Shown one piece after another: positions 6,543 through 47,100 of a DNA stretch of 64,000 nt. This DNA comes from the human T2T-CHM13v2.0 reference genome, Homo sapiens. The stretch is taken from assembly GCA_009914755.4 (NCBI GenBank), contig CP068257.2, forward strand, positions 448,001-512,000, given 5' to 3'. The notes beneath the pieces were generated by a model. That model did not search any database and was not told where the DNA came from. It worked only from the letters and a program-made list of their open reading frames with translations. Position 1 is the first letter of the stretch; each line of letters begins with the position of its first letter. A program made the position numbers and the translations under genes.

Positions 6543-6597
6543 TTTTACTTCACCATTCCATTCCATTCCATTCCATTCCACCCCATTCCGTTCCATT

Positions 6598-6665: not shown

Positions 6666-6744
6666 TTTTATTTCAGCATTCCATTATATTCCTTTCCTTT
6701 CCATTCCATTACATCCCACTCCACTCCATTCCATTCCACTCCAA

Positions 6745-20870: not shown

Positions 20871-20885
20871 CTGCCTCACTATAAC
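20862..20885. other. Abrupt HSat3 / beta-satellite junction with no unique spacer
   Basis: ...ttccactccatctgcctcact | ataactattctctaggatctgatcacagggtgctttgtgacatatccctgcaatgatcacc. Pentamers stop and the first truncated 68 bp beta monomer starts. Confidence 0.75.
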
Positions 20886-21391
20886 TATTCTCTAGGATCT
20901 GATCACAGGGTGCTTTGTGACATATCCCTGCAATGATCACCGAGGTGATATACCACTTGCCAAGGCTCTGCCTACAGGGGCATTGCAATGTATCTCTGCA
21001 CTGATCACCTAGGTCTTGTAACTCTTTTCTAGGATCTGCCTACAGGGTGCCTTGTGACGTATCCCAGCAAGGATTACCCAGGTGATGTACCTCTCATCAA
21101 GGCTCTGCCTACAGCCAAATTGCGATGTATCTCTGCACTGATCACCGAGGTCATGTAAGTTTTGTCTAGGCTCTGCCTACGATGGCATTGTGACATATCT
21201 CTGCACTAATCACCCAAGTGATGTAACTCTTGTCTAGGATCTGCCTAAATTAACTTTGTGACATAACCCTGTACTGATCATCCAGGTGATGGGGCTTTTG
21301 TATGGGCTCTGCCTAAGGGGGCATTGTGACATATTTCTGCATTGAGCACCCAGGTGGCGAACTCTTCTCTTGCATCTGCCTATGGGGGCAT

Positions 21392-21459
21392 TGTGACAAA
21401 TCTCTGCACTGATCACCCAGGTGATGTAACTGTTGTGTAACCTCTGCCTACAGGGGAAT
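21392..21459. repeat. Representative single beta-satellite monomer (68 bp)
   Basis: tgtgacaaatctctgcactgatcacccaggtgatgtaactgttgtgtaacctctgcctacaggggaat. The next monomer begins at 21460. Confidence 0.85.
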
Positions 21460-24400: not shown

Positions 24401-26999
24401 CACTGATCACCTTAGTGATGTAACACTTGTGTAGGCTCGGCCTACAGGGGAATCTTGACATATCTCTGCACTGTTAACCGAGGTGATTTAACTCTTCTCT
24501 AGGCTGTGCCCAAAGGGGTTTGAGACATATCTCTGCACTGATCCCGAGGTGATCCAACTCTTGCCTGGTCTCTGCCTACTGGGGACATTGTGACATATCT
24601 CTGCACTGATCTCCCTGGTGCTGCAACTATAGTCTAGGCTCTGGCTACACGACATTGTGACATATCAGTGCACTGATCACATAGGTGATATAACTCTTGT
24701 CTAGGCTCTGCCTACAATGGTCTTGTGACTTATCTCTGCACTGATCACCCAGGTGATATAACTATTCTCTAGGATCTGACCACAGGGTGCTTTGTGACAT
24801 ATCCCTGCAATGATCACCCAGGTGATATACCACTTGCCAATGCTCTGCCTACAGGGGCATTGCAATGTATCTCAGCACTGATCACCTAGGTCTTGTAACT
24901 GTTTTCTAGGATCTGCCTACAGGGTGCTTTGTGACGTATCCCAGCAAGGATTACCCAGGTGATGTACCGCTCATCAAGGCTCTGCCTACAGGCACATTGC
25001 AATGTATCTCTGCACTGATCACCTAGGTCATGTAACATTTGTCTAGTCTCTGCCTACGATGGCATTGTGACATATTTCTGCACTAATCATCCAAGTGATG
25101 TAACTCTTGTCTAGGATCTGCCTACACTAACTTTGTGACATAATCCTGTACAGATCATCCAGGTGATGGGGTTTTTGTCTAGGCTCTGCCTAAGGGGGCA
25201 TTGTGACAAATTCCTGCATTGATCACCCAGGTGGCGAAATCTTCCCTTGGATCTGCCTATGGGGGCATTGTGACAAATCTCTGCACTGATCACCCAGGTG
25301 CCGTAACAGTTGTGTAACCTCTGCCTACAGGGGAATTGTGAGAGATCTCGCCACTGATCACCCAAGTGATGTAACCATTGACTAGGCTTTGCGAACAGGG
25401 GGTTAGTGACATACCTTTGCACTGATCACCCAGGTGATGTAACACATCTAAGTTCGGCCTAAAGGAGCTTTGTGACATATCTCTGCACTGATCAACCAGG
25501 TGATATAACCCCTGTATAGGCTCTGCCTACAGGGGGCTTGTGACATATGTCTGCACGGATCACCCAGGTGATATAGCTCTTCTCTAGGATCTGCCTATAG
25601 GGTGCTTTGTGACATATCCCTGCACTGATCTCCCAGGTGATCTAACTCTGGTCTAAGCTCTTCCTAAAGGGGCATTGTGACAGATCTCTGCACTGATCAC
25701 TCAGGTGATGTAACTGTTGTCTAGGCTCTGCTTCAAGGGGCCTTGTCACAAATCTCTGCACTGATCACCCAGGTGATGTAACTATTGTCTAGGCTCTGCT
25801 TCCAGGGCATATTGTGACATATCTATGCACTGTTCACCTTAGTGATGTAACACTTGTGTAGGCTCGGCCTACAGGGGAATCTTGACATATATCTACACTG
25901 TTAACCGAGGTGATTTAACTCTTCTCTAGGCTGTGCCCACAGGGGGATTGAGACATATCTCTGCACTGATCCCGAGGTGATCCAACTCTTACTGGTCTCT
26001 GCCTACTGGGGACATTGTGACATATCTCTGCACTGATCTCCCTTGTGCTGCAACTTTAGTCTAGGCTCTGGCTACACGACATTGTGACATAGCAGTGCAC
26101 TGATCACATAGGTGATATAACTCTTGTCTAGGCTCCGCCTACAATGGTCTTGTGACATATCTCTGCACTGATCACCCAGGTGATATAACTATTCTCTAGG
26201 ATCTGACCACAGGGTCCTTTGTGACATATCCCTGCAATGATCACCCAGGTGATATACCACTTGCCAATGCTCTGCCTACAGGGGCATTGCAATGTATCTC
26301 AGCACTGATCACCTAGGTCTTGTAACTCTTTTCTAGGATCTGCCTACAGGGTGCTTTGTGACGTATCCCAGCAAGGATTACCCAGGTGATGTACCGCTCA
26401 TCAAGGCTCTGCCTACAGGCACATTGCGATGTATCTCTGCACTGATCACCTAGGTCATGTAACCTTTGTCTAGTCTCTGCCTACGATGGCATTGTGACAT
26501 ATTTCTGCACTAATCATCCAAGTGATGTAACTCTTGTCTAGGATCTGCTTACACTAACTTTGTGACATAATCCTGTACAGATCATCCAGGTGATGGGGTT
26601 TTTGTCTAGGCTCTGCCTAAGGGGGCATTGTGACATATTTCTGCATTGATCACCCAGGTGGCGAACTCTTCTCTTGGATCTGCCTATGGGGGCATTGTGA
26701 CAAATCTCTGCACTGATCACCCAGGTGTCGTAACTGTTGTGTAACCTCTGCCTACAGGGGAATTGTGAGAGATCTCGCCACTGATCACCCAAGTGATGTA
26801 ACCATTGTCTAGGCTTTGCGTACAGGGGGCTTTGTGACATACCTTTGCACTGATCACCCAGGTGATGTAACACATCTAAGTTCGGCCTAAAGGAGCTTTG
26901 TGACATATCTCTGCATTGATCACTTAGGTGATGTAACACTTTTATAATCACTGCCTACAGGGAATTTTGACAAATCTCTGCACTGATCACCTAGGTGAT

Positions 27000-29900
27000 G
27001 TAACTCTTGTCTACCCTCTGTCCAACGGGGCATTGTGAAATGTCTCTGCACTGATCACCCAGGTGACTCAACTCTTGACTAGGAACTGCCTACAGAGGTT
27101 ATTGTGAAATATCTCTGCACTGATAAACTAGGTGGTGTAACCCTTGTCCAAGCTGTGCCTACAGGGGCGTTTCCACATATCCCTGAACTGATGACAAAGG
27201 TTATGTAACTCTTGCCTAGGCTTTGCCTACAGGGAACATTGGACATATATCTGCACTGATCACCTAGGTGATGCAACTCTTGCCTAGGCTTTGCCTACAG
27301 GGGACATTGTGACATATCTCTTCAATGATCACTCATCTGATGCATCTCTTGCCTAGGCTTTGCGTACAGGGGACATTGTGACATATCTCTGCACTGATCT
27401 CCCAGGTGCTGTAACTTTAGTCTAGGCTCTGGCTACACGGTATTGTGACATATCACTGTACTGATCAACCAGGTGATATAACTCTTGTATAGGCTCTGCC
27501 TACAGGGTGATTGTGACCTACCTCTGCACTGATCACCCAGGTGATATAACTCTTCTCTAGGATCTGCCTACAGGGTACTTTGTGACATATCCCTGCACTG
27601 ATCACCCAGGTGATCTAACTCTGGTCTAAGCTCTGCCTAAAGGGGCATTGTGACAGATCTCTGCACTGATCCCTCTGGTGATGTAAGTATTGTCTAGGCT
27701 CTGCTTCAAGGGGCCTTGTCACATATCTCTGCACTGATCACCCAGGTGATGTAACTCTTGTCTAGGCTCTGCTTCCAGGGCATATTGTGACATATCTATG
27801 CACTGATCACCTTAGTGATGTAACACTTTGGTAGGCTCGGCCTACAGGGGAATCTTGACATATCTTTGCACTGTTAACGGAGGTGATTTAACTCTTGTCT
27901 AGGCTGTGCCCACAGGGGGATTGAGACATATCTCTGCACTGATCCCGAGGTGATACAACTCTTGCCTGGTCTCTGCCTACTGTGGACATTGTGACATATC
28001 TCTGCACTGATCTCCCAGGTGCTGTAACTTTAGTCTATGCTCCGGCTACACGGCATTGTAACATATCACTACACTGATCACCCAGGCGATATAACTCTTC
28101 TCTAGGATCTGACCACAGGGTGCTTTGTGACATATCCCTGCAATGATCACCCAGGTGATATACCACTTGCCAAGGCTCTGCCTACAGGGGCATTGCAATG
28201 TATCTCTGCACTGATCACCTAGGTCTTGTAGCTATTTTCTAGGATCTGCCTACAGGGTGCTTTGTGACGTGTCCCAGCAAGGATTACCCAGGTAATGTAC
28301 CTCTCATCAAGGCTCTGCCTACAGGCACATTGTGATGTATCTCTGCACTGATCACCTAGGTCATGTAACTTTTTTCTAGGCTCTACCTACGATGGCATTG
28401 TGACATATCTCTGCACTAATCATCCAAGTGATGTAACACTTGTCTAGGATGTGCCTAAATTATCTTTTTGACATAACCCTGTACTGATCATCCAGGTGAT
28501 GGAGCTTTTGTCTAGGCTCTGCCTAAGGGGGCATTGTGACATATTTCTGCATTGATCACCCAGGTGGCGAACTCTTCTCTCCGATCTGCCTATGGGGGCA
28601 TTGTGAGAAATCTCTGCACTGATCACCCAGGTGATGTAATTGTTGTGTTACCTCTGCCTACAGGTTAATTGTGAGAGATCTCGTCACTGATTACCCAAGT
28701 GATGTAACCATTGTCTAGGCTTTGCGTACAGGGGGCTTTGTGACATACCTTTGCACTGATCACCCTGGTGATGTAACACATCAAAGTTCGGCCTAAAGGA
28801 GCTTTGTGACATATCTCTGCACTGATCACTTAGGTGATGTAACACTTTTATAATCACTGCCTACAGGGAATTTTGACAAATCTCTGCACTGATCACCTAG
28901 GTGATGTAACTCTTGTCTAACCTCTGTCCAACGGGGCATTGTGAAATATCTCTGCACTGATCACCCAGGTGATTCAACTCTTGACTAGGAACTGCCTACA
29001 GAGGTTATTGTGAAATACCTCTGCACTGATAAACTAGGTCGGGTAACCCTTGTCCAAGCTCTGCCTTCAGGGGCGTTTCCACATATCCCTGAACTGATGA
29101 CAAAAGTGATGTAACCCTTGCCTAGGCTTTGCCTACAGGGAACATTGGACATATATCTGCACTGATCACCCAGGTGATGCAACTCTTGCCTAGGCTTTGC
29201 CTACAGGGAACATTGGACATATATCTGCACTGATCACCCAGGTGATGCAACTCTTGCCTAGGCTTTGCCTACAGGGGACATTGTGACATATCTCTTCAAT
29301 GATCACTCATGTGATGCATCTCTTGCCTAGGCTTTGCCTACAGGCGACATTGTGACATATCTCTGCACTGATCTCCCAGGTGCTGTAACTTTAGTCTAGG
29401 CTCTGGCTACAAGGCATTGTGACCTACCTCTGCACTGATCACCCAGGTGTTATAACTCTTCTCTAGGATCTGCCTACAGGGTACTTTGTGACATATCCCT
29501 GCACTGATCACCCAGGTGATCTAACTCTGGTCTAAGCTCTGCCTAAAGGGGCATTGTGACAGATCTCTGCACTGATCACTCTGGTGATGTAAGTATTGTC
29601 TAGGCTCTGCTTCAAGGGGCCTTGTCACATATCTCTGCACTGATCACCCAGGTGATGTAACTCTTGTCTAGGCTCTGCTTCCAGGGCATATTGTGACATA
29701 TCTATGCACTGATCACCTTAGTGATTGAACACTTTGGTAGGCTCGGCCTACAGGGGAATCTTGACATATCTCTGCACTGTTAACCGAGGTGATTTAACTC
29801 TTGTCTAGGCTTTGCCCACAGGGGGATTGAGACATATCTCTGCACTGATCCCGAGGTGATACAACTCTTGCCTGGTCACTGCCTACTGTGGACATTGTGA

Positions 29901-32900
29901 CATATCTCTGCACTGATCTCCCAGGTGCTGTAACTTTTGTCTAGGCTCTGGCTACACGGCATTGTGACATATCACTGCACTGATCACCCAGGCGATATAA
30001 CTCTTCTCTAGGATCTGACCACAGGGTGCTTTGTGACATATCCCTGCAATGATCACCCAGGTGATATACCACTTGCCAAGGCTCTGCCTACAGGGGCATT
30101 GCAATGTATCTCTGCACTGATCACCTAGGTCTTGTAGCTATTTTCTAAGATCTGCCTACAGGGTGCTTTGTGACGTGTCCCAGCAAGGATTACCCAGGTG
30201 ATGTACCTCTCATCAAGGCTCTGCCTACAGGCACATTGTGATGTATCTCTGCACTGATCACCTAGGTCATGTAACTTTTTTCTAGGCTCTACCTACGATG
30301 GCATTGTGACATATCTCTGCACTAATCATCCAAGTGATGTAACTCTTGTCTAGGATGTGCCGAAATTAACTTTTTGACATAACCCTGTACTGATCATCCA
30401 GGTGATGGAGCTTTTGTCTAGGCTCTGCCTAAGGGGGCATTGTGACATATTTCTGCATTGATCACCCAGGTGGCGAACTCTTCTCTCGGATCTGCCTATG
30501 GGGGCATTTTGAGAAATCTCTGCACTGATCACCCAGGTGATGTAACTGTTGTGTAACCTCTGCCTACAGGGGAATTGTGAGAGATCTCGTCACTGATTAC
30601 CCAAGTGATGTAACCGTTGTCTAGGCTTTGCATACAGGGGGCTTTGTGACATACCTTTGCACTGATCACCCAGGTGATGTAACACATCTAAGTTCGGCCT
30701 AAAGGAGCTTTGTGACATATCTCTGCACTGATCGCTTAGGTGATGTAACACTTTTATAATCACTGCCTACAGGGAATTTTGACAAATCTCTGCACTGATC
30801 ACCTAGGTGATGTAACTCCTGTCTACCCTCTGTCCAACGGGGCATTGTGAAATACCTCTGCACTGATCACCCAGGTGATTCAACTCTTGACTAGGAACTG
30901 GCTACAGAGGTTATTGTGAAATATCTCTGCGCTGATAAACTAGGTGGTGTAAACCTTGTCAAAGCTCTGCCTACAGGGGCGTTTCGACATATCCCTGAAA
31001 TGATGACAAAGGTGATGTAACTCTTGCCTATGCTTTGCCTACAGGGAACATTGGACATATATCTGCACTGATCACCCAGGTGATGCAACTCTTGCCTAGG
31101 CTTTGAAAACAGGGGACATCGTAACATATCTCTTCAATGATCACTCATGTGATGCATCTCTTGCCTAGGCTTTACCTACAGGGGACATTGTGAAATATCT
31201 CTGCACTGATCTCCCAGGTGCTGTAACTTTAGTCTAGGCTCTGGCTACACGACATTGTGACATATCACTGCACTGATCAACCAGGTGATATAACTCTTGT
31301 ATAGGCTCTGCCTACAGGGGGATTGTGACCTACGACTGCACTGATCACCCAGGTGATATAACTCTTCTCTAGGATCTGCCTACAAGGTACTTTGTGACAT
31401 ATCCCTGCACTGATCACCCAGGTGATCTAACTCTGGTCTAAGCTCTGCCTAAAGGGGCATTGTGACAGATCTCTGCACTGATCACTCTGGTGATGTAAGT
31501 ATTTTCTAGGCTCGGCTTCAAGGGGCCTTGTCACATACCTCTGCACTGATCACCCAGGTGATGTAACTCTTGTCTAGGCTCTGCTTCCAGGGCATATTGT
31601 GACATATCTATGCACTGATCACCTTAGTGATGTAACACTTTGGTAGGCTCGGCCTACAGGGGAATCTTGACATATCTCTGCAGTTTTAACCGAGGTGATT
31701 GAACTCTTGTCTAGGCTGTGCCCACAGGGGGATTGAGACATATCTCTGCACTGATCCCGAGGTGATACAACTCTTGCCTGGTATCTGCCTACTGTGGACA
31801 TTGGGACATATCTCTGCACTGATCTCCCAGGTGCTGTAACTTTAGTCTAGGCTCTGGCTACACGGCATTGTGACATATCACTGCACTGATCACCCAGGCG
31901 ATATAACTCTTCTCTAGGATCTGACCACAGGGTGCTTTGTGACATATCCCTGCAATGATCACCCAGGTGATATACCACTTGCCAAGGCTCTGCCTACAGG
32001 GGCATTGCAATGTATCTCTGCACTGATCACCTAGGTCTTGTAGCTATTTTCTAGGATCTGCCTACAGGGTGCTTTGTGACGTGTCCCAGCAAGGATTACC
32101 CAGGTGATGTACCTCTCATCAAGGCTCTGCCTACAGGCACATTGTGATGTATCTCTGCACTGATCACCTAGGTCATGTAACTTTTTTCTAGGCTCTACCT
32201 ACGATGGCATTGTGACATATCTCTGCACTAATCATCCAAGTGATGTAACTCTTGTCTAGGATGTGCCGAAATTAACTTTATGACATAACCCTGTACTGAT
32301 CATCCAGGTGATGGAGCTTTTGTCTAGGCTCTGCCTAAGGGGGCATTGTGACATATTTCTGCATTGATCCCCCAGGTGGCGAACTCTTCTCTCGGATCTG
32401 CCTATGGGGGCATTGTGAGAAATCTCTGCACTGATCACCCAGGTGATGTAACTGTTGTGTATCCTCTGCCTACAGGGGAATTGTGAGAGATCTCGTCACT
32501 GATTACCCAAGTGATGTAACCGTTGTCTAGGCTTTGCATACAGGGGGCTTTGTGACATACCTTTGCACTGATCACCCAGGTGATGTAACACATCTAAGTT
32601 CGGCCTAAAGGAGCTTTGTGACATATCTCTGCACTGATCGCTTAGGTGATGTAACACTTTTATAATCACTGCCTACAGGGAATTTTGACAAATCTCTGCA
32701 CTGATCACCTAGGTGATGTAACTCCTGTCTACCCTCTGTCCAACGGGGCATTGTGAAATACCTCTGCACTGATCACCCAGGTGATTCAACTCTTGACTAG
32801 GAACTGGCTACAGAGGTTATTGTGAAATATCTCTGCGCTGATAAACTAGGTGGTGTAAACCTTGTCAAAGCTCTGCCTACAGGGGCGTTTCGACATATCC

Positions 32901-35900
32901 CTGAAATGATGACAAAGGTGATGTAACTCTTGCCTATGCTTTGCCTACAGGGAACATTGGACATATATCTGCACTGATCACCCAGGTGATGCAACTCTTG
33001 CCTAGGCTTTGAAAACAGGGGACATCGTAACATATCTCTTCAATGATCACTCATGTGATGCATCTCTTGCCTAGGCTTTACCTACAGGGGACATTGTGAA
33101 ATATCTCTGCACTGATCTCCCAGGTGCTGTAACTTTAGTCTAGGCTCTGCCTACACGACATTGTGACATATCACTGCACTCATCAACCAGGTGATATAAC
33201 TCTTGTATAGGCTCTGCCTACAGGGGGATTGTGACCTACGACTGCACTGATCACCCAGGTGATATAACTCTTCTCTAGGATCTGCCTACAAGGTACTTTG
33301 TGACATATCCCTGCACTGATCACCCAGGTGATCTAACTCTGGTCTAAGCTCTGCCTAAAGGGGCATTGTGACAGATCTCTGCACTGATCACTCTGGTGAT
33401 GTAAGTATTTTCTAGGCTCTGCTTCAAGGGGCCTTGTCACATACCTCTGCACTGATCACCCAGGTGATGTAACTCTTGTCTAGGCTCTGCTTCCAGGGCA
33501 TATTGTGACATATCTATGCACTGATCACCTTAGTGATGTAACACTTTGGTAGGCTCGGCCTACAGGGGAATCTTGACATATCTCTGCAGTTTTAACCGAG
33601 GTGATTGAACTCTTGTCTAGGCTGTGCCCACAGGGGGATTGAGACATATCTCTGCACTGATCCCGAGGTGATACAACTCTTGCCTGGTATCTGCCTACTG
33701 TGGACATTGGGACATATCTCTGCACTGATCTCCCAGGTGCTGTAACTTTAGTCTAGGCTCTGGCTACACGGCATTGTGACATATCACTGCACTGATCACC
33801 CAGGCGATATAACTCTTCTCTAGGATCTGACCACAGGGTGCTTTGTGACATATCCCTGCAATGATCACCCAGGTGATATACCACTTGCCAAGGCTCTGCC
33901 TACAGGGGCATTGCAATGTATCTCTGCACTGATCACCTAGGTCTTGTAGCTATTTTCTAGGATCTGCCTACAGGGTGCTTTGTGACGTGTCCCAGCAAGG
34001 ATTACCCAGGTGATGTACCTCTCATCAAGGCTCTGCCTACAGGCACATTGTGATGTATCTCTGCACTGATCACCTAGGTCATGTAACTTTTTTCTAGGCT
34101 CTACCTACGATGGCATTGTGACATATCTCTGCACTAATCATCCAAGTGATGTAACTCTTGTCTAGGATGTGCCGAAATTAACTTTTTGACATAACCCTGT
34201 ACTGATCATCCAGGTGATGGAGCTTTTGTCTAGGCTCTGCCTAAGGGGGCATTGTGACATATTTCTGCATTGATCACCCAGGTGGCGAACTCTTCTCTCG
34301 GATCTGCCTATGGGGGCATTGTGAGAAATCTCTGCACTGATCACCCAGGTGATGTAACTGTTGTGTTACCTCTGCCTACAGGTTAATTGTGAGAGATCTC
34401 GTCACTGATTACCCAAGTGATGTAACCATTGTCTAGACTTTGCGTACAGGGGGCTTTGTGACATACCTTTGCACTGATCACCCAGGTGATGTAACACATC
34501 TAAGTTCGGCCTAAAGGAGCTTTGTGACATATCTCTGCACTGATCACTTAGGTGATGTAACACTTTTATAATCACTGCCTACAGGGAATTTTGACAAATC
34601 TCTGCACTGATCACCTAGGCGATGTAACTCTTGTCTACCCTCTGTCCAACGGGGCATTGTGAAATGTCTCTGCACTGATCACCCAGGTGACTCAACTCTT
34701 GACTAGGAACTGCCTACAGAGGTTATTGTGAAATATCTCTGCACTGATAAACTAGGTGGTGTAACCCTTGTCCAAGCTCTGCCTACAGGGGCGTTTCCAC
34801 ATATCCCTGAACTGATGACAAAGGTTATGTAACTCTTGCCTAGGCTTTGCCTACAGGGAACATTGGACATATATCTGCACTGATCACCTAGGTGATGCAA
34901 CTCTTGCCTAGGCTTTGCCTACAGGGGACATTGTGACATATCTCTTCAATGATCACTCATCTGATGCATCTCTTACCTAGGCTTTGCGTACAGGGGACAT
35001 TGTGACATATCTCTGCACTGATCTCCCAGGTGCTGTAACTTTAGTCTAGGCTCTGGCTACACGGTATTGTGACATATCACTGTACTGATCAACCAGGTGA
35101 TATAACTCTTGTATAGGCTCTGCCTACAGGGTGATTGTGACCTACCTCTGCACTGATCACCCAGGTGATATAACTCTTCTCTAGGATCTGCCTACAGGGT
35201 ACTTTGTGACATATCCCTGCACTGATCACCCAGGTGATCTAACTCTGGTCTAAGCTCTGCCTAAAGGGGCATTGTGACAGATCTCTGCACTGATCCCTCT
35301 GGTGATGTAAGTATTGTCTAGGCTCTGCTTCAAGGGGCCTTGTCACATATCTCTGCACTGATCACCCAGGTGATGTAACTCTTGTCTAGGCTCTGCTTCC
35401 AGGGCATATTGTGACATATCTATGCACTGATCACCTTAGTGATGTAACACTTTGGTAGGCTCGGCCTACAGGGGAATCTTGACATATCTTTGCACTGTTA
35501 ACGGAGGTGATTTAACTCTTGTCTAGGCTGTGCCCATAGGGGGATTGAGACATATCTCTGCACTGATCCCGAGGTGATACAACTCTTGCCTGGTCTCTGC
35601 CTACTGTGGACATTGTGACATATCTCTGCACTGATCTCCCAGGTGCTGTAACTTTAGTCTATGCTCCGGCTACACGGCATTGTAACATATCACTACACTG
35701 ATCACCCAGGCGATATAACTCTTCTCTAGGATCTGACCACAGGGTGCTTTGTGACATATCCCTGCAATGATCACCCAGGTGATATACCACTTGCCAAGGC
35801 TCTGCCTACAGGGGCATTGCAATGTATCTCTGCACTGATCACCTAGGTCTTGTAGCTATTTTCTAGGATCTGCCTACAGGGTGCTTTGTGACGTGTCCCA

Positions 35901-38900
35901 GCAAGGATTACCCAGGTAATGTACCTCTCATCAAGGCTCTGTCTACAGGCACATTGTGATGTATCTCTGCACTGATCACCTAGGTCATGTAACTTTTTTC
36001 TAGGCTCTACCTACGATGGCATTGTGACATATCTCTGCACTAATCATCCAAGTGATGTAACCCTTGTCTAGGATCTGCCTAAATTATCTTTTTGACATAA
36101 CCCTGTACTGATCATCCAGGTGATGGAGCTTTTGTCTAGGCTCTGCCTAAGGGGGCATTGTGACATATTTCTGCATTGATCACCCAGGTGGCGAACTCTT
36201 CTCTCGGATCTGCCTATGGGGGCATTGTGAGAAATCTCTGCACTGATCACCCAGGTGATGTAATTGTTGTGTTACCTCTGCCTACAGGTTAATTGTGAGA
36301 GATCTCGTCACTGATTACCCAAGTGATGTAACCATTGTCTAGGCTTTGCGTACAGGGGGCTTTGTGACATACCTTTGCACTGATCACCCTGGTGATGTAA
36401 CACATCAAAGTTCGGCCTAAAGGAGCTTTGTGACATATCTCTGCACTGATCACTTAGGTGATGTAACACTTTTATAATCACTGCCTACAGGGAATTTTGA
36501 CAAATCTCTGCACTGATCACCTAGGTGATGTAACTCTTGTCTAACCTCTGTCCAACGGGGCATTGTGAAATATCTCTGCACTGATCACCCAGGTGATTCA
36601 ACTCTTGACTAGGAACTGCCTACAGAGGTTATTGTGAGATACCTCTGCACTGATAAACTAGGTCGGGTAACCCTTGTCCAAGCTCTGCCTTCAGGGGCGT
36701 TTCCACATATCCCTGAACTGATGACAAAAGTGATGTAACCCTTGCCTAGGCTTTGCCTACAGGGAACATTGGACATATATCTGCACTGATCACCCAGGTG
36801 ATGCTACTCTTGCCTAGGCTTTGCCTACAGGGAACATTGGACATATATCTGCACTGATCACCCAGGTGATGCAACTCTTGCCTAGGCTTTGCCTACAGGG
36901 GACATTGTGACATATCTCTTCAATGATCACTCATGTGATGCATCTCTTGCCTAGGCTTTGCCTACAGGCGACATTGTGACATATCTCTGCACTGATCTCC
37001 CAGGTGCTGTAACTTTAGTCTAGGCTCTGGCTACAAGGCATTGTGACCTACCTCTGCACTGATCACCCAGGTGTTATAACTCTTCTCTGGGATCTGCCTA
37101 CAGGGTACTTTGTGACATATCCCTGCACTGATCACCCAGGTGATCTAACTCTGGTCTAAGCTCTGCCTAAAGGGGCATTGTGACAGATCTCTGCACTGAT
37201 CACTCTGGTGATGTAAGTATTGTCTAGGCTCTGCTTCAAGGGGCCTTGTCACATATCTCTGCACTGATCACCCAGGTGATGTAACTCTTGTCTAGGCTCT
37301 GCTTCCAGGGCATATTGTGACATATCTATGCACTGATCACCTTAGTGATTGAACACTTTGGTAGGCTCGGCCTACAGGGGAATCTTGACATATCTCTGCA
37401 CTGTTAACCGAGGTGATTTAACTCTTGTCTAGGCTGTGCCCACAGGGGGATTGAGACATATCTCTGCACTGATCCCGAGGTGATACAACTCTTGCCTGGT
37501 CACTGCCTACTGTGGACATTGTGACATATCTCTGCACTGATCTCCCAGGTGCTGTAACTTTTGTCTAGGCTCTGGCTACACGGCATTGTGACATATCACT
37601 GCACTGATCACCCAGGCGATATAACTCTTCTCTAGGATCTGACCACATGGTGCTTTGTGACATATCCCTGCAATGATCACCCAGGTGATATACCACTTGC
37701 CAAGGCTCTGCCTACAGGGGCATTGCAATGTATCTCTGCACTGATCACCTAGGTCTTGTAGCTATTTTCTAGGATCTGCCTACAGGGTGCTTTGTGACGT
37801 GTCCCAGCAAGGATTACCCAGGTGATGTACCTCTCATCAAGGCTCTGCCTACAGGCACATTGTGATGTATCTCTGCACTGATCACCTAGGTCATGTAACT
37901 TTTTTCTAGGCTCTACCTACGATGGCATTGTGACATATCTCTGCACTAATCATCCAAGTGATGTAACTCTTGTCTAGGATGTGCCGAAATTAACTTTTTG
38001 ACATAACCCTGTACTGATCATCCAGGTGATGGAGCTTTTGTCTAGGCTCTGCCTAAGGGGGCATTGTGACATATTTCTGCATTGATCACCCAGGTGGCGA
38101 ACTCTTCTCTCGGATCTGCCTATGGGGGTATTTTGAGAAATCTCTGCACTGATCACCCAGGTGATGTAACTGTTGTGTAACCTCTGCCTACAGGGGAATT
38201 GTGAGAGATCTCGTCACTGATTACCCAAGTGATGTAACCGTTGTCTAGGCTTTGCATACAGGGGGCTTTGTGACATACCTTTGCACTGATCACCCAGGTG
38301 ATGTAACACATCTAAGTTCGGCCTAAAGGAGCTTTGTGACATATCTCTGCACTGATCGCTTAGGTGATGTAACACTTTTATAATCACTGCCTACAGGGAA
38401 TTTTGACAAATCTCTGCACTGATCACCTAGGTGATGTAACTCCTGTCTACCCTCTGTCCAACGGGGCATTGTGAAATACCTCTGCACTGATCACCCAGGT
38501 GATTCAACTCTTGACTAGGAACTGGCTACAGAGGTTATTGTGAAATATCTCTGCGCTGATAAACTAGGTGGTGTAAACCTTGTCAAAGCTCTGCCTACAG
38601 GGGCGTTTCGACATATCCCTGAAATGATGACAAAGGTGATGTAACTCTTGCCTATGCTTTGCCTACAGGGAACATTGGACATATATCTGCACTGATCACC
38701 CAGGTGATGCAACTCTTGCCTAGGCTTTGAAAACAGGGGACATCGTAACATATCTCTTCAATGATCACTCATGTGATGCATCTCTTGCCTAGGCTTTACC
38801 TACAGGGGACATTGTGAAATATCTCTGCACTGATCTCCCAGGTGCTGTAACTTTAGTCTAGGCTCTGGCTACACGACATTGTGACATATCACTGCACTGA

Positions 38901-41650
38901 TCAACCAGGTGATATAACTCTTGTATAGGCTCTGCCTACAGGGGGATTGTGACCTACGACTGCACTGATCACCCAGGTGATATAACTCTTCTCTAGGATC
39001 TGCCTACAAGGTACTTTGTGACATATCCCTGCACTGATCACCCAGGTGATCTAACTCTGGTCTAAGCTCTGCCTAAAGGGGCATTGTGACAGATCTCTGC
39101 ACTGATCACTCTGGTGATGTAAGTATTTTCTAGGCTCGGCTTCAAGGGGCCTTGTCACATACCTCTGCACTGATCACCCAGGTGATGTAACTCTTGTCTA
39201 GGCTCTGCTTCCAGGGCATATTGTGACATATCTATGCACTGATCACCTTAGTGATGTAACACTTTGGTAGGCTCGGCCTACAGGGGAATCTTGACATATC
39301 TCTGCAGTTTTAACCGAGGTGATTGAACTCTTGTCTAGGCTGTGCCCACAGGGGGATTGAGACATATCTCTGCACTGATCCCGAGGTGATACAACTCTTG
39401 CCTGGTATCTGCCTACTGTGGACATTGGGACATATCTCTGCACTGATCTCCCAGGTGCTGTAACTTTAGTCTAGGCTCTGGCTACACGGCATTGTGACAT
39501 ATCACTGCACTGATCACCCAGGCGATATAACTCTTCTCTAGGATCTGACCACAGGGTGCTTTGTGACATATCCCTGCAATGATCACCCAGGTGATATACC
39601 ACTTGCCAAGGCTCTGCCTACAGGGGCATTGCAATGTATCTCTGCACTGATCACCTAGGTCTTGTAGCTATTTTCTAGGATCTGCCTACAGGGTGCTTTG
39701 TGACGTGTCCCAGCAAGGATTACCCAGGTGATGTACCTCTCATCAAGGCTCTGCCTACAGGCACATTGTGATGTATCTCTGCACTGATCACCTAGGTCAT
39801 GTAACTTTTTTCTAGGCTCTACCTACGATGGCATTGTGACATATCTCTGCACTAATCATCCAAGTGATGTAACTCTTGTCTAGGATGTGCCGAAATTAAC
39901 TTTATGACATAACCCTGTACTGATCATCCAGGTGATGGAGCTTTTGTCTAGGCTCTGCCTAAGGGGGCATTGTGACATATTTCTGCATTGATCCCCCAGG
40001 TGGCGAACTCTTCTCTCGGATCTGCCTATGGGGGCATTGTGAGAAATCTCTGCACTGATCACCCAGGTGATGTAACTGTTGTGTATCCTCTGCCTACAGG
40101 GGAATTGTGAGAGATCTCGTCACTGATTACCCAAGTGATGTAACCGTTGTCTAGGCTTTGCATACAGGGGGCTTTGTGACATACCTTTGCACTGATCACC
40201 CAGGTGATGTAACACATCTAAGTTCGGCCTAAAGGAGCTTTGTGACATATCTCTGCACTGATCGCTTAGGTGATGTAACACTTTTATAATCACTGCCTAC
40301 AGGGAATTTTGACAAATCTCTGCACTGATCACCTAGGTGATGTAACTCCTGTCTACCCTCTGTCCAACGGGGCATTGTGAAATACCTCTGCACTGATCAC
40401 CCAGGTGATTCAACTCTTGACTAGGAACTGGCTACAGAGGTTATTGTGAAATATCTCTGCGCTGATAAACTAGGTGGTGTAAACCTTGTCAAAGCTCTGC
40501 CTACAGGGGCGTTTCGACATATCCCTGAAATGATGACAAAGGTGATGTAACTCTTGCCTATGCTTTGCCTACAGGGAACATTGGACATATATCTGCACTG
40601 ATCACCCAGGTGATGCAACTCTTGCCTAGGCTTTGAAAACAGGGGACATCGTAACATATCTCTTCAATGATCACTCATGTGATGCATCTCTTGCCTAGGC
40701 TTTACCTACAGGGGACATTGTGAAATATCTCTGCACTGATCTCCCAGGTGCTGTAACTTTAGTCTAGGCTCTGCCTACACGACATTGTGACATATCACTG
40801 CACTCATCAACCAGGTGATATAACTCTTGTATAGGCTCTGCCTACAGGGGGATTGTGACCTACGACTGCACTGATCACCCAGGTGATATAACTCTTCTCT
40901 AGGATCTGCCTACAAGGTACTTTGTGACATATCCCTGCACTGATCACCCAGGTGATCTAACTCTGGTCTAAGCTCTGCCTAAAGGGGCATTGTGACAGAT
41001 CTCTGCACTGATCACTCTGGTGATGTAAGTATTTTCTAGGCTCTGCTTCAAGGGGCCTTGTCACATACCTCTGCACTGATCACCCAGGTGATGTAACTCT
41101 TGTCTAGGCTCTGCTTCCAGGGCATATTGTGACATATCTATGCACTGATCACCTTAGTGATGTAACACTTTGGTAGGCTCGGCCTACAGGGGAATCTTGA
41201 CATATCTCTGCAGTTTTAACCGAGGTGATTGAACTCTTGTCTAGGCTGTGCCCACAGGGGGATTGAGACATATCTCTGCACTGATCCCGAGGTGATACAA
41301 CTCTTGCCTGGTATCTGCCTACTGTGGACATTGGGACATATCTCTGCACTGATCTCCCAGGTGCTGTAACTTTAGTCTAGGCTCTGGCTACACGGCATTG
41401 TGACATATCACTGCACTGATCACCCAGGCGATATAACTCTTCTCTAGGATCTGACCACAGGGTGCTTTGTGACATATCCCTGCAATGATCACCCAGGTGA
41501 TATACCACTTGCCAAGGCTCTGCCTACAGGGGCATTGCAATGTATCTCTGCACTGATCACCTAGGTCTTGTAGCTATTTTCTAGGATCTGCCTACAGGGT
41601 GCTTTGTGACGTGTCCCAGCAAGGATTACCCAGGTGATGTACCTCTCATC
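27000..41650. repeat. Two tandem copies of a ~7.6 kb (7,624 bp) beta-satellite super-unit of four 1.9 kb HORs. Pattern is A-B-B'-D | A-B-B'-D at ~99% identity.
   Basis: 7,624 bp offset matches: gtgactcaactcttgactaggaactgcc at 27063/34687; shared private variants gaaatgtctc at 27040/34664 and ctgccttcaggggcgtttcc / gacaaaagtgatgtaaccc at 29.0k/36.7k. Identical repeat-ORF peptides occur at 30891/38515, 31619/39243, 32797/40421 and 33525/41149. Identity decays before ~26.95 kb and after ~41.6 kb. Confidence 0.8.
30577..32482. repeat. Representative beta-satellite HOR copy: 28 monomers, 1,906 bp
   Basis: The marker gtgagagatctcgtcactgattaccc occurs at 30577 and again at 32483. The following copy (32483-34388) is ~99% identical. 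Confidence 0.85.
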
Positions 41651-43861
41651 AAGGCTCTGCCTACAGGCATATTGTGAAGTATCTCTGCACTGATCACCTA
41701 GGTCATGTAACTTTTTTCTAGGCTCTACCTACGATGGCATTGTGACATATCTCTGCACTAATCATCCAAGTGATGTAACTCTTGTCTAGGATGTGCCTAA
41801 ATTAACTTTTTGACATAACCCTGTACTGATCATCCAGGTGATGGAGCTTTTGTCTAGGCTCTGCCTAAAGGGGCATTGTGACATATTTCTGCTTTGATCA
41901 CCCAGGTGGCGACCTCTTCTCTCGGATCTGCCTATGGGGGCATTGTGAGAAATCTCTGCACTGATCACCCAGGTGATGTAACTGTTGTGTAACCTCTGCC
42001 TACAGGTTAATTGTGAGAGATCTCGTCACTGATTACCCAAGTGATGTAACCATTGACTAGGCTTTGCGTACAGGGGGCTTTGTGACATACCTTTGCACGG
42101 ATCACCCAGGTGATGTAACACATCTAAGTTCGGCCTAAAGGAGCTTTGTGACATATCTCTGCACTGATCACTTAGGTGATGTAACACTTTTATAATCACG
42201 GCCTACAGGGAATTTTGACAAATCTCTGCACTGATCACCTAGGTGATGTAACTCCTGTCTACCCTCTGTCCAACGGGGCATTGTGAAATATCTCTGCACT
42301 GATCACCCAGGTGATTCAACTCTTGACTAGGAACTGCCTACAGAGGTTATTGTGAAATATCTCTGCACTGATAAACTAGGTGGGGTAACCCTTGTCCAAG
42401 CTCTGCCTACAGGGGCGTTTCCACATATCCCTGAACTAATGACAAAGGTGATGTAACTCTTTCCTAGGCTTTACCTACAAGGAACATTGGACATATATCT
42501 GCACTGATCACCCAGGTGATGCAACTCTTGCCTAGGCTTTGCCTACAGGGGACATTGTGACATATTTCTTCAATGATCACTCATGTGATGCATCTCTTGC
42601 TAGGCTTTGCCTACAGGGGACATTGTGACATATCTCTGTACTGATCTCCCAGGTGCTGTAACTTTAGTTTAGGCTCTGGCTACACGGCATTGTGACATAT
42701 CACTGCACTGATCAACCAGGTGATATAACTCTTGTATATGCTCTGAATACAGGGGGATTGTGACCTACCTCTGCACTGATCACCCAGGTGATATAAATCT
42801 TCTCTAGGATCTGCCTACAGGGTACTTTGTAACATATCCCTGCACTGATCACCCAGGTGATCTAACTCTGGTCTAAGCTCTGCCTAAAGGGGCATTGTGA
42901 CAGATCTATGCACTGATCACTCAGGTGATGTAAGTATTGTCTAGGCTCTGCTTCAAGGGGCCTTGTCACATATCTCTGCACTGATCACCCAGGTGATGTA
43001 ACTCTTGTCTAGGCTCTGCTTCCAGGGCATATTGTGACATATCTATGCACTGATCACCTTAGTGATGTAACACTTTGGTAGGCTCGGCCTACAGGGGAAT
43101 CTTGACATATCTCTGCACTGTTAGCCGAGGTGATTTAACTCTTGTCTAGGCTGTGCCCACAGGGGTATTGAGACAAATCTCTGCACTGATCCCGAGGTGA
43201 TACAACTCTTGCCTGGTCTCTGCCTACTGTGGACATTGTGACATATCTCTGCACTGATCTCCCAGGTGCTGTAACTTTAATCTAGGCTCTGGCTACACGG
43301 CATTGTGACATATCAATGCACTGATCACCCAGGCGATATAACTCTTCTCTAGGATCTGACCACATGGTGCTTTGTGACATATCCCTGCAATGATCACCCA
43401 GGTGATATACCACTTGCCAAGGCTCTGCCTACAGGGGCATTGCAATGCATCTCTGCACTGATCACCTAGGTCTTGTAGCTATTTTCTAGGATCTGCCTAC
43501 AGGGTGCTTTGTGACGTGTCCCAGCAAGGATTACCCAGGTGATGTACCTCTCATCAAGACTCTGCCTACAGGCATATTGTGATGTATCTCTACACTGACC
43601 ACCTAGGTCATTTAACTTTTTTCTAGGCTCTACCTACGATGGCATTGTGACATATCTCTGCACTAATCATCCAAGTGATGTAACTCTTGTCTAGGATGTG
43701 CCTAAATTAACTTTTTGACATAACCCTGTACTGATCATCCAGGTGATGGAACTTTTGTCTAGGCTCTGCCTAAGGGGGCATTGTGACATATTTCTTTATT
43801 GATCACCCAGGTGGCGAACTCTTCTCTCGGATCTGCCTATGGGGGCATTGTGAGAAATCTC

Positions 43862-44135
43862 TGCACTGATCACCCAGGTGATGTAACTGTTTTGTAACCT
43901 CTGCCTACAGGTTAATTGTGAGAGATCTCTTCACTGATTACCCACGTGATGTAACCATTGTCTAAGCTTTGCGTACAGGGGGCTTTGTGTCATACCTTTG
44001 CACTGATCACCCAGGTGATGTAACTGTTGTGTAACCTCTGCCTACAGGGGAATTGTGAGAGATCTCGTCACTGATTACCCAAGTGATGTAAGCGTTGTCT
44101 AGGCTTTGCGTACAAGGGGCTTTGTGACATACCTT
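43862..44135. repeat. Two-monomer (~136 bp) local tandem duplication within the beta array
   Basis: gtaacctctgcctacagg[tt/gg]aattgtgagagatctc[t/g]tcactgattaccca[c/a]gtgatgtaa is repeated with gtgaga at 43918 and 44055. Confidence 0.7.
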
Positions 44136-47100
44136 TGCACTGATCACCCAGGTGATGTAACACATCTAAGTTCTGCCTAAAGGAGCTTTGTGACATATCT
44201 CTGCACTGATCACTTAGGTGATGTAACACTTTTATAATCACTGCCTACAAGGAATTTTGACAAATCTCTGCACTGATCACCTAGGTGATGTAACTCTTGT
44301 CTACCCTCTGTCCAACGGGGCATTGTGAAATATCTCTGCACTGATCACCCAGGTGATTCAACTCTTGACTAGGAACTGCCTACAGAGGTTATTGTGAAAT
44401 ATCTCTGCACTGATAAACTAGGTGGTGTAACCCTTGTCCAAGCTCTGCCTACATGGGCGTTTCCACATATCCCTGAACTGATGACAAAGGTGATGTAACT
44501 CTTGCCTAGGCTATGCCTACAGGGAACATTGGAAATATATCTGCACTGATCACCCAGGTGATGCAACTCTTGCCTTGGCTTTGCCTACAGGGGACATCGT
44601 GACATATCTCTTCAATGATAACTCATGTGATGCATCTCTTGCCTAGGCTTTGCCTACAGGGGACATTGTGACATATCTCTGCACTGATCTCCCAGGTGCT
44701 GTAACTTTAATGTATGCTCTGGCTACACGGCATTGTGACATATCACTGCACTGATCAACCAGGTGATATAACTTTTGTATAGGCTCTGCCTACAGGGGGA
44801 TTGTGACCTACCTCTGCACTGATCACCCAGGTGATATAACTCTTCTCTAGGATCTTCCTACAGGGTACTTTGTGACATATCCCTGCACTGATCACCCAGG
44901 TGATCTATCTCTGGTCTAAGCTCTGCTTAAAGGGGCATTGTGACAGATCTCTGCACTGATCACTCAGGTGATGTAAGTATTGTCTAGGCTCTGCTTCAAG
45001 GGGCCTTGTCACATATCTCTTCACTGATCACCCAGGTGATGTAACTCTTGTCTAGGCTCTGCTTCCAGGGCATATTGTGACATATCTATGCACTGATCAC
45101 CTTAGTGATGTAACACTTTGGTAGGCTTGGCCTACAGGGGAATCTTGACATATCTCTGCACTGTTAACCGAGGTGATTTAACTCTTGTCTAGGCTGTGCC
45201 CACAGGGGGATTGAGACATATCTCTGCACTGATCCCGAGGTGATACAACTCTTGCCTGGTCTCTGCCTACTGTGGACATTGTGACATATCTCTGCACTGA
45301 TCTCCCAGGTGCTGTAACTTTAGTCTAGCCTCTGGCTACACGGCATTGTGACATATCACTGCACTGATCACCCAGGCGATATAACTCTTCTCTAGGATCT
45401 GACCACAGGGTGCTTTGTGACATATCCCTGCAATGATCACCCAGGTGATATACCACTTGCCAAGGCTCTGCCTACAGGGGCATTGCAATGTATCTCTGCA
45501 CTGATCACCTAGGTCATGTAACTTTTTTCTAGGCTCTACCTACGATGGCATTGTGACACATCTCTGCACTAATCATCCAACTGATATAACTCTTGTCTAG
45601 GATTTGCCGAAATTAACTTTTTGACATAACCCTGTACTGATCATCCAGGTGATGGAGCTTTTGTCTAGGCTCTGCGTAAGGGGCATTGTGACATATTTCT
45701 GCATTGATCACCCAGGTGGCGAACTCTTCTCTCGGATCTGCCTATGGGGGCATTGTGAGAAATCTCTGTACTGATCACCCAGGTGATGTAACTGTTGTGT
45801 AACCTCTGCCTACAGGGGAATTGTGAGAGATCTCGTCACTGATTACCCAAGTGATGTAACCGTTGTCTAGGCTTTGCATACAGGGGGCTTTGTGACATAC
45901 CTTTGCACTGATCACCCAGGTGATGTAACACATCTAAGTTCGCTCTAAAGGAGCTTTGTGACATATCTCTGCACTGATCACTTAGGTGATGTAACACTTT
46001 TATAATCACTGCCTACAGGGAATTTTGACAAATCTCTTCACTGATCACCTAGGTGATGTAACTCTTGTCTACCCCCTGTCCAACGGGGCATTGTGAAATA
46101 TCTCTGCACTGATCACCCAGGTGATTCAACTCTTGACTAGGAACTGCCTACAGAGGTTATTGTGAAATATCTCTGCACTGATAAACTAGGTGGTGTAAAC
46201 CTTGTCCAAGCTCTGCCTACAGGGGCGTTTCCACATATCCCTGAACTGATGACAAAGGTTATGTAACTCTTGCCTTGGCTTTGCCTACAGGGAACATTGG
46301 ACATATATCTGCACTGATCACCCAGGTGATGCAACTCTTGCCTAGGCTTTGCCTACAGGGGACATCGTGACATATCTCTTCAATGATCACTCATGTGATG
46401 CATCTCTTGCCTAGGCTTTGCCTACAGGTGACATTGTGACATATCTCTGCACTGATCTCCCAGGTGCTGTAACTTTAGTCTAGGCTCTGGCTACACGGCA
46501 TTGTGACATATCACTGCACTGATCAACCAGGTGATATAACTCTTGTATAGGCTCTGCCTACAGGGGGATTGTGACGTACCTCTGCACTGATCACCCAGGT
46601 GATATAACTCTTCTCTAGGATCTGCCTACAGGGTACTTTGTGACATATCCCTTCACTGATCACCCAGGTGATCTAACTGTGGTCTAAGCTCTGCCTAAAG
46701 GGGCATTGTGACAGATCTCTGCACTGATCACTCTGGTGATGTAAGTATTGTCTAGTCTCTGCTTCAAGGGGCCTTGTCACATATCTCTGCACTGATCACC
46801 CAGGTGATGTAACACTTGTCTAGGCTCTGCTTCCAGGGCTTATTGTGACATATCTATGCACTGATCACCTTAGTGATGTAACACTTTGGTAGGCTCGGCC
46901 TACAGGGGAATCTTGACATATCTCTGCACTGTTAACCGAGGTGATTTAACTCTTGTCTAGGCGGTGCCCACAGGGGATTTGAGATATATCTCTGCACTGA
47001 TCCCGAGGTGATACAACCCTTGCCTGGTCTCTGCCTACTGTGGACATTGGGACACATCTCTGTACTGATCTCCCAGGCGATATAACTGTTCTCTAGGATC

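What the first reader, a model, noticed from the sequence alone, without database searches (positions are those of the whole stretch)
27000..41650. Very recent 7.6 kb (4-HOR) segmental duplication, with a nested near-identical HOR pair, inside the beta array
The super-unit A-B-B'-D (7,624 bp) occurs twice in tandem. The copies share private variants that are absent elsewhere in the array. Inside each copy, two neighbouring HORs (30.58-32.48 vs 32.48-34.39 kb; 38.20-40.11 vs 40.11-42.01 kb) are ~99% identical. This is a clean example of hierarchical satellite expansion: monomer to 28-mer HOR to 4-HOR super-HOR. It is also a prime candidate for assembly collapse or expansion error.
Basis: seen in the sequence. 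Interest (0 to 1): 0.5.

Follow-up and report, generated by a model that had tools for sequence, protein, structure and literature searches.

The report
Two-copy four-HOR repeat in beta satellite
Inside an ordinary beta-satellite array, a block of four 1.9-kb repeat units has been copied next to itself almost perfectly; this is a real and cleanly measurable example of how satellite DNA homogenises locally, but it is a well-known kind of event.

Summary
Positions 20880-64000 are a 68-bp beta-satellite array organised as a 28-monomer, 1,906-bp HOR. The 223 unrelated HOR pairs average 94.85 ± 1.43% (maximum 97.69%). The copies share 16, 35 and 19 private alleles and a private one-monomer structural variant. 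The nested pairs are 99.53% and 99.27% identical.

Three refinements apply:
- The near-identical tract is 26997-34045 vs 34621-41669. That is 7,049 bp, 575 bp shorter than its 7,624-bp period. The segment between the copies (34046-34620) matches neither homologue and is not a single-switch chimera. A one-step unequal crossover or BIR duplication therefore does not fit.
- All 14 differences lie in the first 3,509 bp and none in the last 3,540 bp (p = 6e-5). The tract has two age layers, and only the second half is "very recent".
- There are only two copies, so this is not a new periodic "super-HOR" level.

Best reading: repeated out-of-register (4-HOR offset) homologous recombination, probably non-reciprocal copying. 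It came after an earlier 1-HOR-offset event. It lies within a younger HOR subfamily core flanked by older units. Assembly error cannot be tested without reads, but the sequence argues against it. The finding is ordinary for satellite DNA and of low interest.

The parts
20880..64000 (+). Beta-satellite (68-bp, Sau3A-type) array, all in one orientation. It abuts a (TCCAT)n HSat2/3-type pentamer array at 11-20870.
   Evidence: TRF gives period 68 over 20882-64000 and period 5 over 11-20870. There are 1.05 GATC sites per 68 bp. All BLAST hits are on the plus strand.
26768..49570 (+). Core block of 12 HOR units (U4-U15) of one subfamily: 28-mers of 1905-1906 bp, with U14 a 27-mer. It is flanked on both sides by units of a second, related subfamily.
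   Evidence: Identity matrix and UPGMA clustering: core-core 96.6%, core-left 93.2%, core-right 94.4%. Left-flank unit U2 clusters with right-flank unit U17. The U3 tail's best match is the U16 tail, 5 mismatches in 346 bp.
26997..34045 (+). Copy 1 of the near-identical tract: most of U4 (A), U5 (D), U6 (B), and U7 (B') up to HOR offset 1559.
   Evidence: At lag 7624 there are 14 mismatches in 7,049 bp (99.80%) and no indel. The first flanking mismatches are at 26996 and 34046.
34621..41669 (+). Copy 2 of the near-identical tract (U8-U11 up to offset 1559).
   Evidence: Same comparison as copy 1. Eight of the 12 polarisable differences are singleton derived alleles in this copy and 4 are in copy 1.
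34046..34620 (+). Junction segment J (U7 tail plus U8 head). It is HOR-homologous and in register, but it is not part of the near-identical tract.
   Evidence: 28 of 575 sites mismatch the left homologue 26422-26996, and 12 of 575 mismatch the right homologue 41670-42244. The J=R (24), J=L (8) and L=R (4) sites are interleaved. No in-window donor is closer than 4 mismatches. P(12 or more mismatches at the 0.40% rate) = 5e-6.
30506..34045 (+). Perfectly identical sub-tract, paired with 38130-41669. This is the youngest layer.
   Evidence: Zero mismatches over 3,540 bp, the longest exact repeat in the region. All 14 differences fall in 26997-30505 (binomial p = 5.7e-5).
30580..34391 (+). Nested near-identical neighbour pair B (30580-32485) and B' (32486-34391). 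The second instance is 38204-40109 and 40110-42015.
   Evidence: 9 and 14 mismatches. Only 3 differences lie within offsets 0-1559, at the same bins in both copies. The lag-1906 low-mismatch run is 29939-32460 (10 mismatches in 2,522 bp).
29074..29430 (+). Structural variant private to U5 and U9: a one-monomer register shift over HOR offsets of about 400-750, ending in a hybrid monomer. The second instance is at about 36698-37054.
   Evidence: Alignment A1. The diagnostic 30-mer CTCTGGCTACAAGGCATTGTGACCTACCTC occurs only at 29401-29430 and 37025-37054.

Best explanation
This is a real, local homogenisation event in a beta-satellite HOR array, made by homologous recombination between array copies misaligned by exactly four HORs (7,624 bp). 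The most likely history has three steps. (1) A 1-HOR-offset exchange made the B/B' pair. (2) A non-reciprocal copying event (long-tract gene conversion or SDSA-type repair using a template 4 HORs out of register) laid a copy of 26997 to at least 30505 over the units four HORs to the right. (3) A later event in the same register started in that now-identical stretch and extended the copy rightwards over 30506-34045, giving the perfect half. Because the copying is non-reciprocal, the tract can be shorter than the offset, and the original 575-bp segment between the copies survives. The sequence has no coding or RNA function. The event is a by-product of repair and recombination in tandem heterochromatic DNA. 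What is shown: tract coordinates, identity, private variants, two age layers, and the misfit of the junction segment. What is inferred: the recombination pathway, the direction (left copy as donor), and the order of steps 1 and 2.
For: Identity is far above background and confined to one lag. Private alleles and a private monomer-level structural variant are shared by the paired units. The tract is 7,049 bp against a 7,624-bp period. J differs from both homologues in an interleaved pattern and has no near-identical donor in the window, and P(12 or more mismatches in 575 bp at the tract's own rate) = 5e-6. All 14 differences are in the first half (p = 5.7e-5), and 12 of 14 are singleton derived alleles split 4:8 between the copies. 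They are substitutions only (7 transitions, 7 transversions) with no indels, i.e. ordinary divergence after copying. The B/B' differences within the tract are identical in both copies, so B/B' predates the youngest layer. In copy 2 the B-like sequence stops exactly at 41669, whereas in copy 1 it runs on to about 34366. This suggests copy 1 is the donor. Unequal exchange, gene conversion and out-of-register BIR are the established turnover mechanisms for satellite arrays (PMC8997354, PMC11034957).
Against: The sequence alone cannot show whether copy number changed. A true 7,624-bp duplication followed by a second in-register exchange with a breakpoint at 41669/41670, plus a re-homogenisation, gives the same end state with one more event. 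The HOR tail (offsets about 1350-1650) is naturally low in diversity, 0-1.4% between lineages, so the right-hand tract end and the 'copy 1 is donor' argument rest on few informative sites. Donors for J or for 41670-42244 could lie outside the 64-kb window. The 14-versus-0 pattern could also reflect exchange between diverged homologues or heterologous arrays rather than two events.
Confidence: 0.5

Rival explanations
1. This is a classical copy-number-increasing tandem duplication of a full 7,624-bp, 4-HOR block, made by unequal sister-chromatid or homologue exchange or by out-of-register BIR. It was later modified in two ways. An in-register exchange with a breakpoint at 41669/41670 replaced the end of copy 2. 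A conversion in the 4-HOR register erased differences over 30506-34045.
For: This is the textbook mechanism for satellite expansion. The period is an exact multiple of the HOR and there is no indel in 7 kb. The right-hand replacement needs no in-window donor, which is consistent.
Against: It needs three events where the conversion model needs two. A one-step product must be near-identical over exactly 7,624 bp with the junction a single-switch chimera; the observed tract is 7,049 bp and the junction pattern is interleaved.
Confidence: 0.35
2. This is an assembly artefact. Either it is a false tandem duplication (a graph loop traversed twice, or two haplotypes placed in tandem), or, for the perfect half only, polishing erased true differences between copies.
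For: There is a 3,540-bp stretch in each copy with no window-unique 31-mer, and there are four B-type units at 99.3% identity or higher. Repeats of this kind are the usual sites of such errors. The perfect half abutting a 0.4% half is unusual.
Against: The copies differ at 14 sites, 12 of them singleton derived alleles in one copy or the other, which a loop-derived false copy of a haploid sequence would not have. A false tandem copy should be near-identical over the whole period with J equal to its right homologue, but J differs at 12 of 575 sites. The B versus B' differences are preserved identically in both copies, so polishing did not blur them. A 3.5-kb marker-free stretch is easily spanned by 15-20 kb HiFi or ONT reads.
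Confidence: 0.07
3. There is no special event. The similarity is the ordinary high identity between HOR copies of a homogeneous array.
For: HOR copies in satellites are generally similar, 93-97.7% here.
Against: 99.66-99.80% over 7 kb is more than 3 SD above the background mean and 2 points above the background maximum. The signal is confined to one lag and is accompanied by 70 or more private shared alleles and a private structural variant.
Confidence: 0.01

Closest known systems
Human beta satellite (Sau3A family) HOR arrays, e.g. the pB3 (chr9) and pB4 (acrocentric) types. βSat totals 7.7 Mb in T2T-CHM13, is enriched on acrocentric short arms and lies in 11 pericentromeres.
   Same: The monomer is 68 bp with about one GATC per monomer. 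The arrays are head-to-tail. Monomers are about 75% alike within a unit while units are 93-98% alike. The array sits next to (CATTC)n-derived HSat (literature).
   Different: I could not compare the sequence with named reference clones or with an annotated human assembly, so the chromosome and the D-locus name of this 28-mer, 1,906-bp HOR are unknown. Species is inferred only from the satellite types.
Local or 'hyper-local' expansions and layered expansion in satellite arrays (Altemose et al., 10.1101/2021.07.12.452052); saltatory amplification in alpha satellite (Logsdon et al., PMC11062924)
   Same: A younger, more homogeneous block (U4-U15) lies between older units that are each other's closest relatives. 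Inside it lies a still younger block of near-identical multi-HOR copies.
   Different: The scale is tiny (15 kb, two copies) compared with the 100-kb to Mb layers described for active alpha-satellite arrays. It is a non-centromeric satellite family. The youngest block sits at the left edge of the core, not its centre.
Hierarchical or nested HOR annotation (HiCAT local-nested HORs, PMC10053651)
   Same: Repeats of repeats, with tandem amplification at a second level.
   Different: LN-HORs are amplifications of a sub-unit inside a HOR. Here the amplified unit is several whole HORs (supra-HOR), and it is not iterated beyond two copies.
Smith unequal-exchange model, Dover gene conversion / molecular drive, and out-of-register BIR (Talbert and Henikoff, PMC8997354; Showman et al., PMC11034957; Rice, 10.1101/731430)
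   Same: Recombination between misaligned tandem repeats, with the register set by whole repeat units.
   Different: Reciprocal exchange or BIR predicts a tract equal to the offset. The observed tract is 575 bp shorter and has two age layers, which fits non-reciprocal copying or several successive events.

Membership tests
Beta satellite (Sau3A family) | Tandem monomers of about 68 bp | tested here: met
   TRF gives period 68 with 633.6 copies. Anchor spacing is 66-69 bp.
Beta satellite (Sau3A family) | A Sau3A (GATC) site in most monomers | tested here: met
   665 GATC sites in the array, 1.05 per 68 bp, against 13 in the 20.9-kb pentamer array.
Beta satellite (Sau3A family) | Sequence match to a curated βSat reference (Dfam/RepBase BSR or clones pB3/pB4) | not testable with these tools
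   No repeat library or human reference is available. Indirect support only: metagenome contigs of the same family include one with βSat flanking a double-homeobox (D4Z4/DUX-like) ORF, a known βSat association (PMC3488192 title and abstract).
Higher-order repeat array | Monomers within a unit are diverged while whole units are highly similar | tested here: met
   Intra-HOR monomer identity averages 75.2%. Unit-to-unit identity is 93-97.7%. There are 28 monomers per unit.
Super-HOR (a new periodic level made of 4 HORs) | The multi-HOR unit is iterated as an array (three or more copies, or an array-wide period) | tested here: not met
   Two copies only. Identity at lag 15248 is 0.35 and at lag -7624 is 0.27, both out-of-register level. 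No other tile has its best hit at lag 7624.
One-step tandem duplication (unequal crossover or out-of-register BIR) | The near-identical tract equals the offset, and the junction is a single-switch chimera of its two homologues | tested here: not met
   The tract is 7,049 bp against a 7,624-bp offset. The junction has 24 J=R, 8 J=L and 4 L=R sites, interleaved. P = 5e-6 for the excess mismatches.
Non-reciprocal copying (long-tract gene conversion) | The tract may be shorter than the offset, with both flanks at background divergence | tested here: met
   The flanks are 4.9% and 2.1% divergent, against 0.20% inside the tract.
Non-reciprocal copying (long-tract gene conversion) | No change in repeat copy number | not testable with these tools
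   This needs other haplotypes of the same array.
Layered expansion | A younger homogeneous core flanked on both sides by older, mutually related units | tested here: met
   UPGMA clustering and group means. The U3 tail is closest to the U16 tail. This holds only at the scale of this window, and U1 and U3 are poorly resolved.
Assembly false duplication or collapse | Read depth and spanning reads inconsistent with the assembled copy number | not testable with these tools
   No reads are available. Sequence-level indicators argue against it.

The most novel reading that the evidence does not exclude
The tract was built by two successive copy-number-neutral conversion events, each about 3.5 kb, in the same 4-HOR-shifted register. 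The first tract acted as a seed that locked later misaligned pairing into that register. If general, this 'register locking' would be a way for supra-HOR periodicities to nucleate in satellites without unequal crossover.
Probability: 0.3. Interest if true: 0.35.

Novelty: already known. Interest (0 to 1): 0.15.

Why it matters
The finding matters only modestly. It is a clean, fully resolved small example of satellite turnover. Event order, tract boundaries and relative ages can be read directly from the sequence, and the tract being shorter than its period points to non-reciprocal copying rather than textbook unequal crossover. It could serve as a test case for HOR-decomposition tools. It could also serve as a marker locus for comparing haplotypes of this beta-satellite array. 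It reveals no new element, function or mechanism.

Tried and rejected
- **First monomer chopper.** A greedy aligner gave nonsense monomer lengths because the aligner's end-gap option changed meaning. I replaced it with core-motif anchoring.
- **Raw BLAST identities.** Values of 87-88% for the flank units suggested two very different HOR classes. Gapped alignment showed they are 93-95% identical in aligned columns, and the low values came from one-monomer register shifts.
- **B-like tract longer than one period.** I first read the 2,522-bp B-like run at lag 1906 as evidence of about 2.3 near-identical copies. The HOR tail is generally low in diversity across the core, so I do not rely on this.
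- **Public collections.** The U5/U9 hybrid-monomer 30-mer had 0 hits in metagenome contigs. A family-level 35-mer gave 10 metagenome contigs and one 272-bp contig in a bacterial assembly. All are 80-97.7% identical to window units and none reaches 99%, so they say nothing about copy number or polymorphism of this block. L009 is a chimera with bacterial genes.
- **Rfam.** A scan of the whole window gave no match.
- **Waye and Willard 1989.** PMC297815 is not held, so the HOR could not be matched to pB3 or pB4.
- **Chance similarity.** Rejected.
Full report
**What the window is.** TRF and base composition split the window into two satellites. Positions 11-20870 are a (TCCAT)n pentamer array with strong GC skew, of the HSat2/3 type. 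Positions 20882-64000 are a 68-bp array. The 68-bp array has about one GATC per monomer, and all of it lies in one orientation. This matches the published definition of beta satellite: a 68-bp Sau3A-family repeat organised in HORs, found on acrocentric short arms and in several pericentromeres, often next to HSat. I could not compare it with a curated repeat library or a human reference. The family assignment therefore rests on these features, and the chromosome is unknown. No Rfam family matches anywhere in the window.

**HOR structure.** Ungapped self-identity peaks at 1906 bp and its multiples. Core-motif anchoring gives 28 monomers of 66-69 bp in each of units U4-U13. Monomers within a unit are 75% alike on average. 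I phased the array on 30580 and numbered the units U0-U23. U4-U15 (26768-49570) are 1905-1906-bp 28-mers, except U14, which is a 27-mer. U16-U22 alternate between 29-mers (1973-1974 bp) and 28-mers (1904 bp). On the left, U1-U3 include a truncated 22-monomer unit.

**Checking the observation.**
- At lag 7624, 500-bp windows are 99.4-100% identical from 27001 to 34000 and at out-of-register level elsewhere.
- The gapped all-against-all matrix gives 99.4, 99.6, 100.0 and 99.6% for U4/U8, U5/U9, U6/U10 and U7/U11. The 223 unrelated pairs average 94.85 ± 1.43% with a maximum of 97.69%.
- Every 400-bp tile between 26.9 and 41.7 kb has its best match at lag ±7624. Outside that span, best matches are 94-99% at scattered lags.
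- Private shared alleles number 16 (U4/U8), 35 (U5/U9) and 19 (U6/U7/U10/U11), against 5 or fewer for any other pair.
- U5 and U9 also share a one-monomer register shift that ends in a hybrid monomer. Its 30-mer occurs only at 29401 and 37025.
- The nested pairs are 99.53% and 99.27% identical.

**Fine structure that changes the interpretation.**

First, the near-identical tract is 26997-34045 vs 34621-41669. That is 7,049 bp with 14 mismatches.
- It is 575 bp shorter than its own period.
- The intervening segment J (34046-34620) differs from its left homologue at 28 of 575 sites and from its right homologue at 12 of 575 sites.
- Where the three sequences differ, J=R (24 sites), J=L (8) and L=R (4) are interleaved rather than switching once.
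- Twelve or more mismatches in 575 bp has probability 5e-6 at the tract's own rate.
- Neither J nor 41670-42244 has a donor in the window closer than 4 to 7 mismatches.

A single unequal crossover or an out-of-register BIR restart must leave a tract equal to the offset, with a single-switch chimeric junction. That model is rejected as a complete account.

Second, all 14 differences lie in 26997-30505, and none lie in 30506-34045 (p = 5.7e-5). Twelve of the 14 are singleton derived alleles when compared with the 20 other units. Four are in copy 1 and eight in copy 2. All are substitutions, 7 transitions and 7 transversions. They look like ordinary divergence after copying. The tract therefore has two age layers:
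- The older layer has 0.40% divergence, about 4 My (2.2-6.7) at 0.5e-9 per bp per year. That falls to about 1 My if the rate is about fourfold higher, as reported near centromeres.
- The younger layer has 0% divergence, under about 1 My.

The rates are from general knowledge, and the dates are rough inferences.

Third, B and B' differ at only 3 sites within offsets 0-1559, and these are identical in both copies. B/B' therefore predates the youngest layer. Its order relative to the older layer is unresolved.

Fourth, in copy 1 the B-like sequence continues past the tract end to about 34366, whereas in copy 2 it stops at 41669. This hints that copy 1 was the donor. The HOR tail is naturally low in diversity, so this is weak evidence.

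**Mechanism.** I commit to out-of-register (4-HOR offset) homologous recombination within the array. Most likely there were two successive non-reciprocal copying events in the same register. The older one covered 26997 to at least 30505. The younger one started in that now-identical stretch and extended the copy to 34045. This needs two events at lag 7624 and explains the short tract, the untouched junction and the two ages.

The main rival is a true 7,624-bp duplication followed by a truncating in-register exchange at 41669/41670 and a re-homogenisation. It needs three events but cannot be excluded from one haplotype. Unequal exchange, conversion and BIR are all established for satellite arrays (titles and abstracts).

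**Context.** Clustering puts U4-U15 together (mean 96.6%). It places left-flank unit U2 with right-flank units U16-U22, and the U3 tail is closest to the U16 tail. A younger core thus sits between two blocks of one older subfamily, and the youngest block occupies the left two-thirds of that core. This is a miniature of the layered or hyper-local expansion pattern described for satellites, including βSat HORs.

**Related sequences elsewhere.** The U5/U9-specific 30-mer has no exact match in metagenome contigs. A family-level 35-mer retrieved 10 metagenome contigs and one 272-bp contig in a bacterial assembly. They are 80-97.7% identical to window units, and none reaches 99%. They are other copies of the family and do not bear on this block.

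**Assembly-error question.** Each copy has a 3,540-bp stretch with no window-unique 31-mer, and each copy has about 260 unique 31-mers in total. Three features are not what a looped or haplotype-merged false duplication would give:
- the 14 phased, mostly singleton differences between the copies;
- the tract shorter than the period, with a divergent junction;
- the faithful preservation of the B/B' differences in both copies.

A 3.5-kb marker-free stretch is also well within HiFi or ONT read length. Only reads can settle this.

**Novelty and score.** Multi-HOR local duplications, homogenised domains and nested repeat levels are standard features of satellite arrays. With only two copies, this is not a new periodic level. 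The one mildly interesting point is that the tract is shorter than its period and has two abutting age layers. That favours conversion-type copying and suggests that a first tract can lock later events into the same register. I rate this speculative (probability about 0.3). Overall this is an ordinary, well-resolved instance of a known process.

Noticed in passing
window 20860-20885: There is a sharp junction between the (TCCAT)n HSat-type array and the beta-satellite array, with no spacer. βSat begins in mid-HOR, at about offset 1323 of the 1,906-bp unit.
   Followed up: partly
window 6480-6545 and 6600-6670: Two diverged Alu-like fragments (…TCACTCTGTCACCCAGACTGGAGTGCAGTGGCACAAT…) lie about 123 bp apart inside the pentamer array. 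The GC skew of the pentamer array also changes from about -0.7/-0.8 (1-8 kb) to about -0.88 (8-20 kb), suggesting two sub-blocks.
   Followed up: no
window 49571-63245: The right part of the βSat array uses 29-monomer (1973-1974 bp) and 28-monomer (1904 bp) HOR variants. From 55490 they alternate, giving a 3,878-bp two-HOR period with tiles 97-99% identical at lag 3878. This looks like an older, more diverged example of the same multi-HOR copying.
   Followed up: partly
window 21464-26767 vs 49571-63245: Left-flank units U2 and U3 are closest to the right-flank units (U2/U17 97.4%; U3 tail vs U16 tail, 5 mismatches in 346 bp) and not to the adjacent core. The older subfamily is split by the U4-U15 core. 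U3 is truncated to 22 monomers (1,534 bp) and U14 (45826-47664) is a 27-mer.
   Followed up: partly
window 29074-29430 and 36698-37054: U5 and U9 keep 28 monomers but have a one-monomer register shift: one monomer is duplicated near offset 400-500 and one is lost near offset 745, leaving a hybrid monomer. This is a structural HOR variant seen nowhere else in the window.
   Followed up: yes
L007 1-4714 (metagenome contig OINW01000227.1): βSat blocks (94% identical to window units over L007 3231-4714) flank about 2.8 kb of GC-rich sequence. That sequence encodes a 170-aa ORF with two homeodomains (Pfam PF00046, E = 5e-37). It is D4Z4/DUX-like sequence next to βSat of this HOR family.
   Followed up: partly
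L009 1-8041 (OLDW01000434.1) and L011 (NZ_JAKGAQ010000031.1, Octadecabacter dasysiphoniae): L009 joins 6.7 kb of bacterial genes to 1.4 kb of βSat, so it is a chimeric metagenome contig. L011 is a 272-bp, low-coverage βSat contig (96-97% identical to window units) deposited in a bacterial genome assembly, most likely primate or human DNA contamination.
   Followed up: no
window 30580-32485 (U6): Within one HOR, monomer pairs range from 63% to 98.5% identity. At least one pair of monomers in the 28-mer is nearly identical, which hints at a recent intra-HOR monomer duplication or conversion.
   Followed up: no
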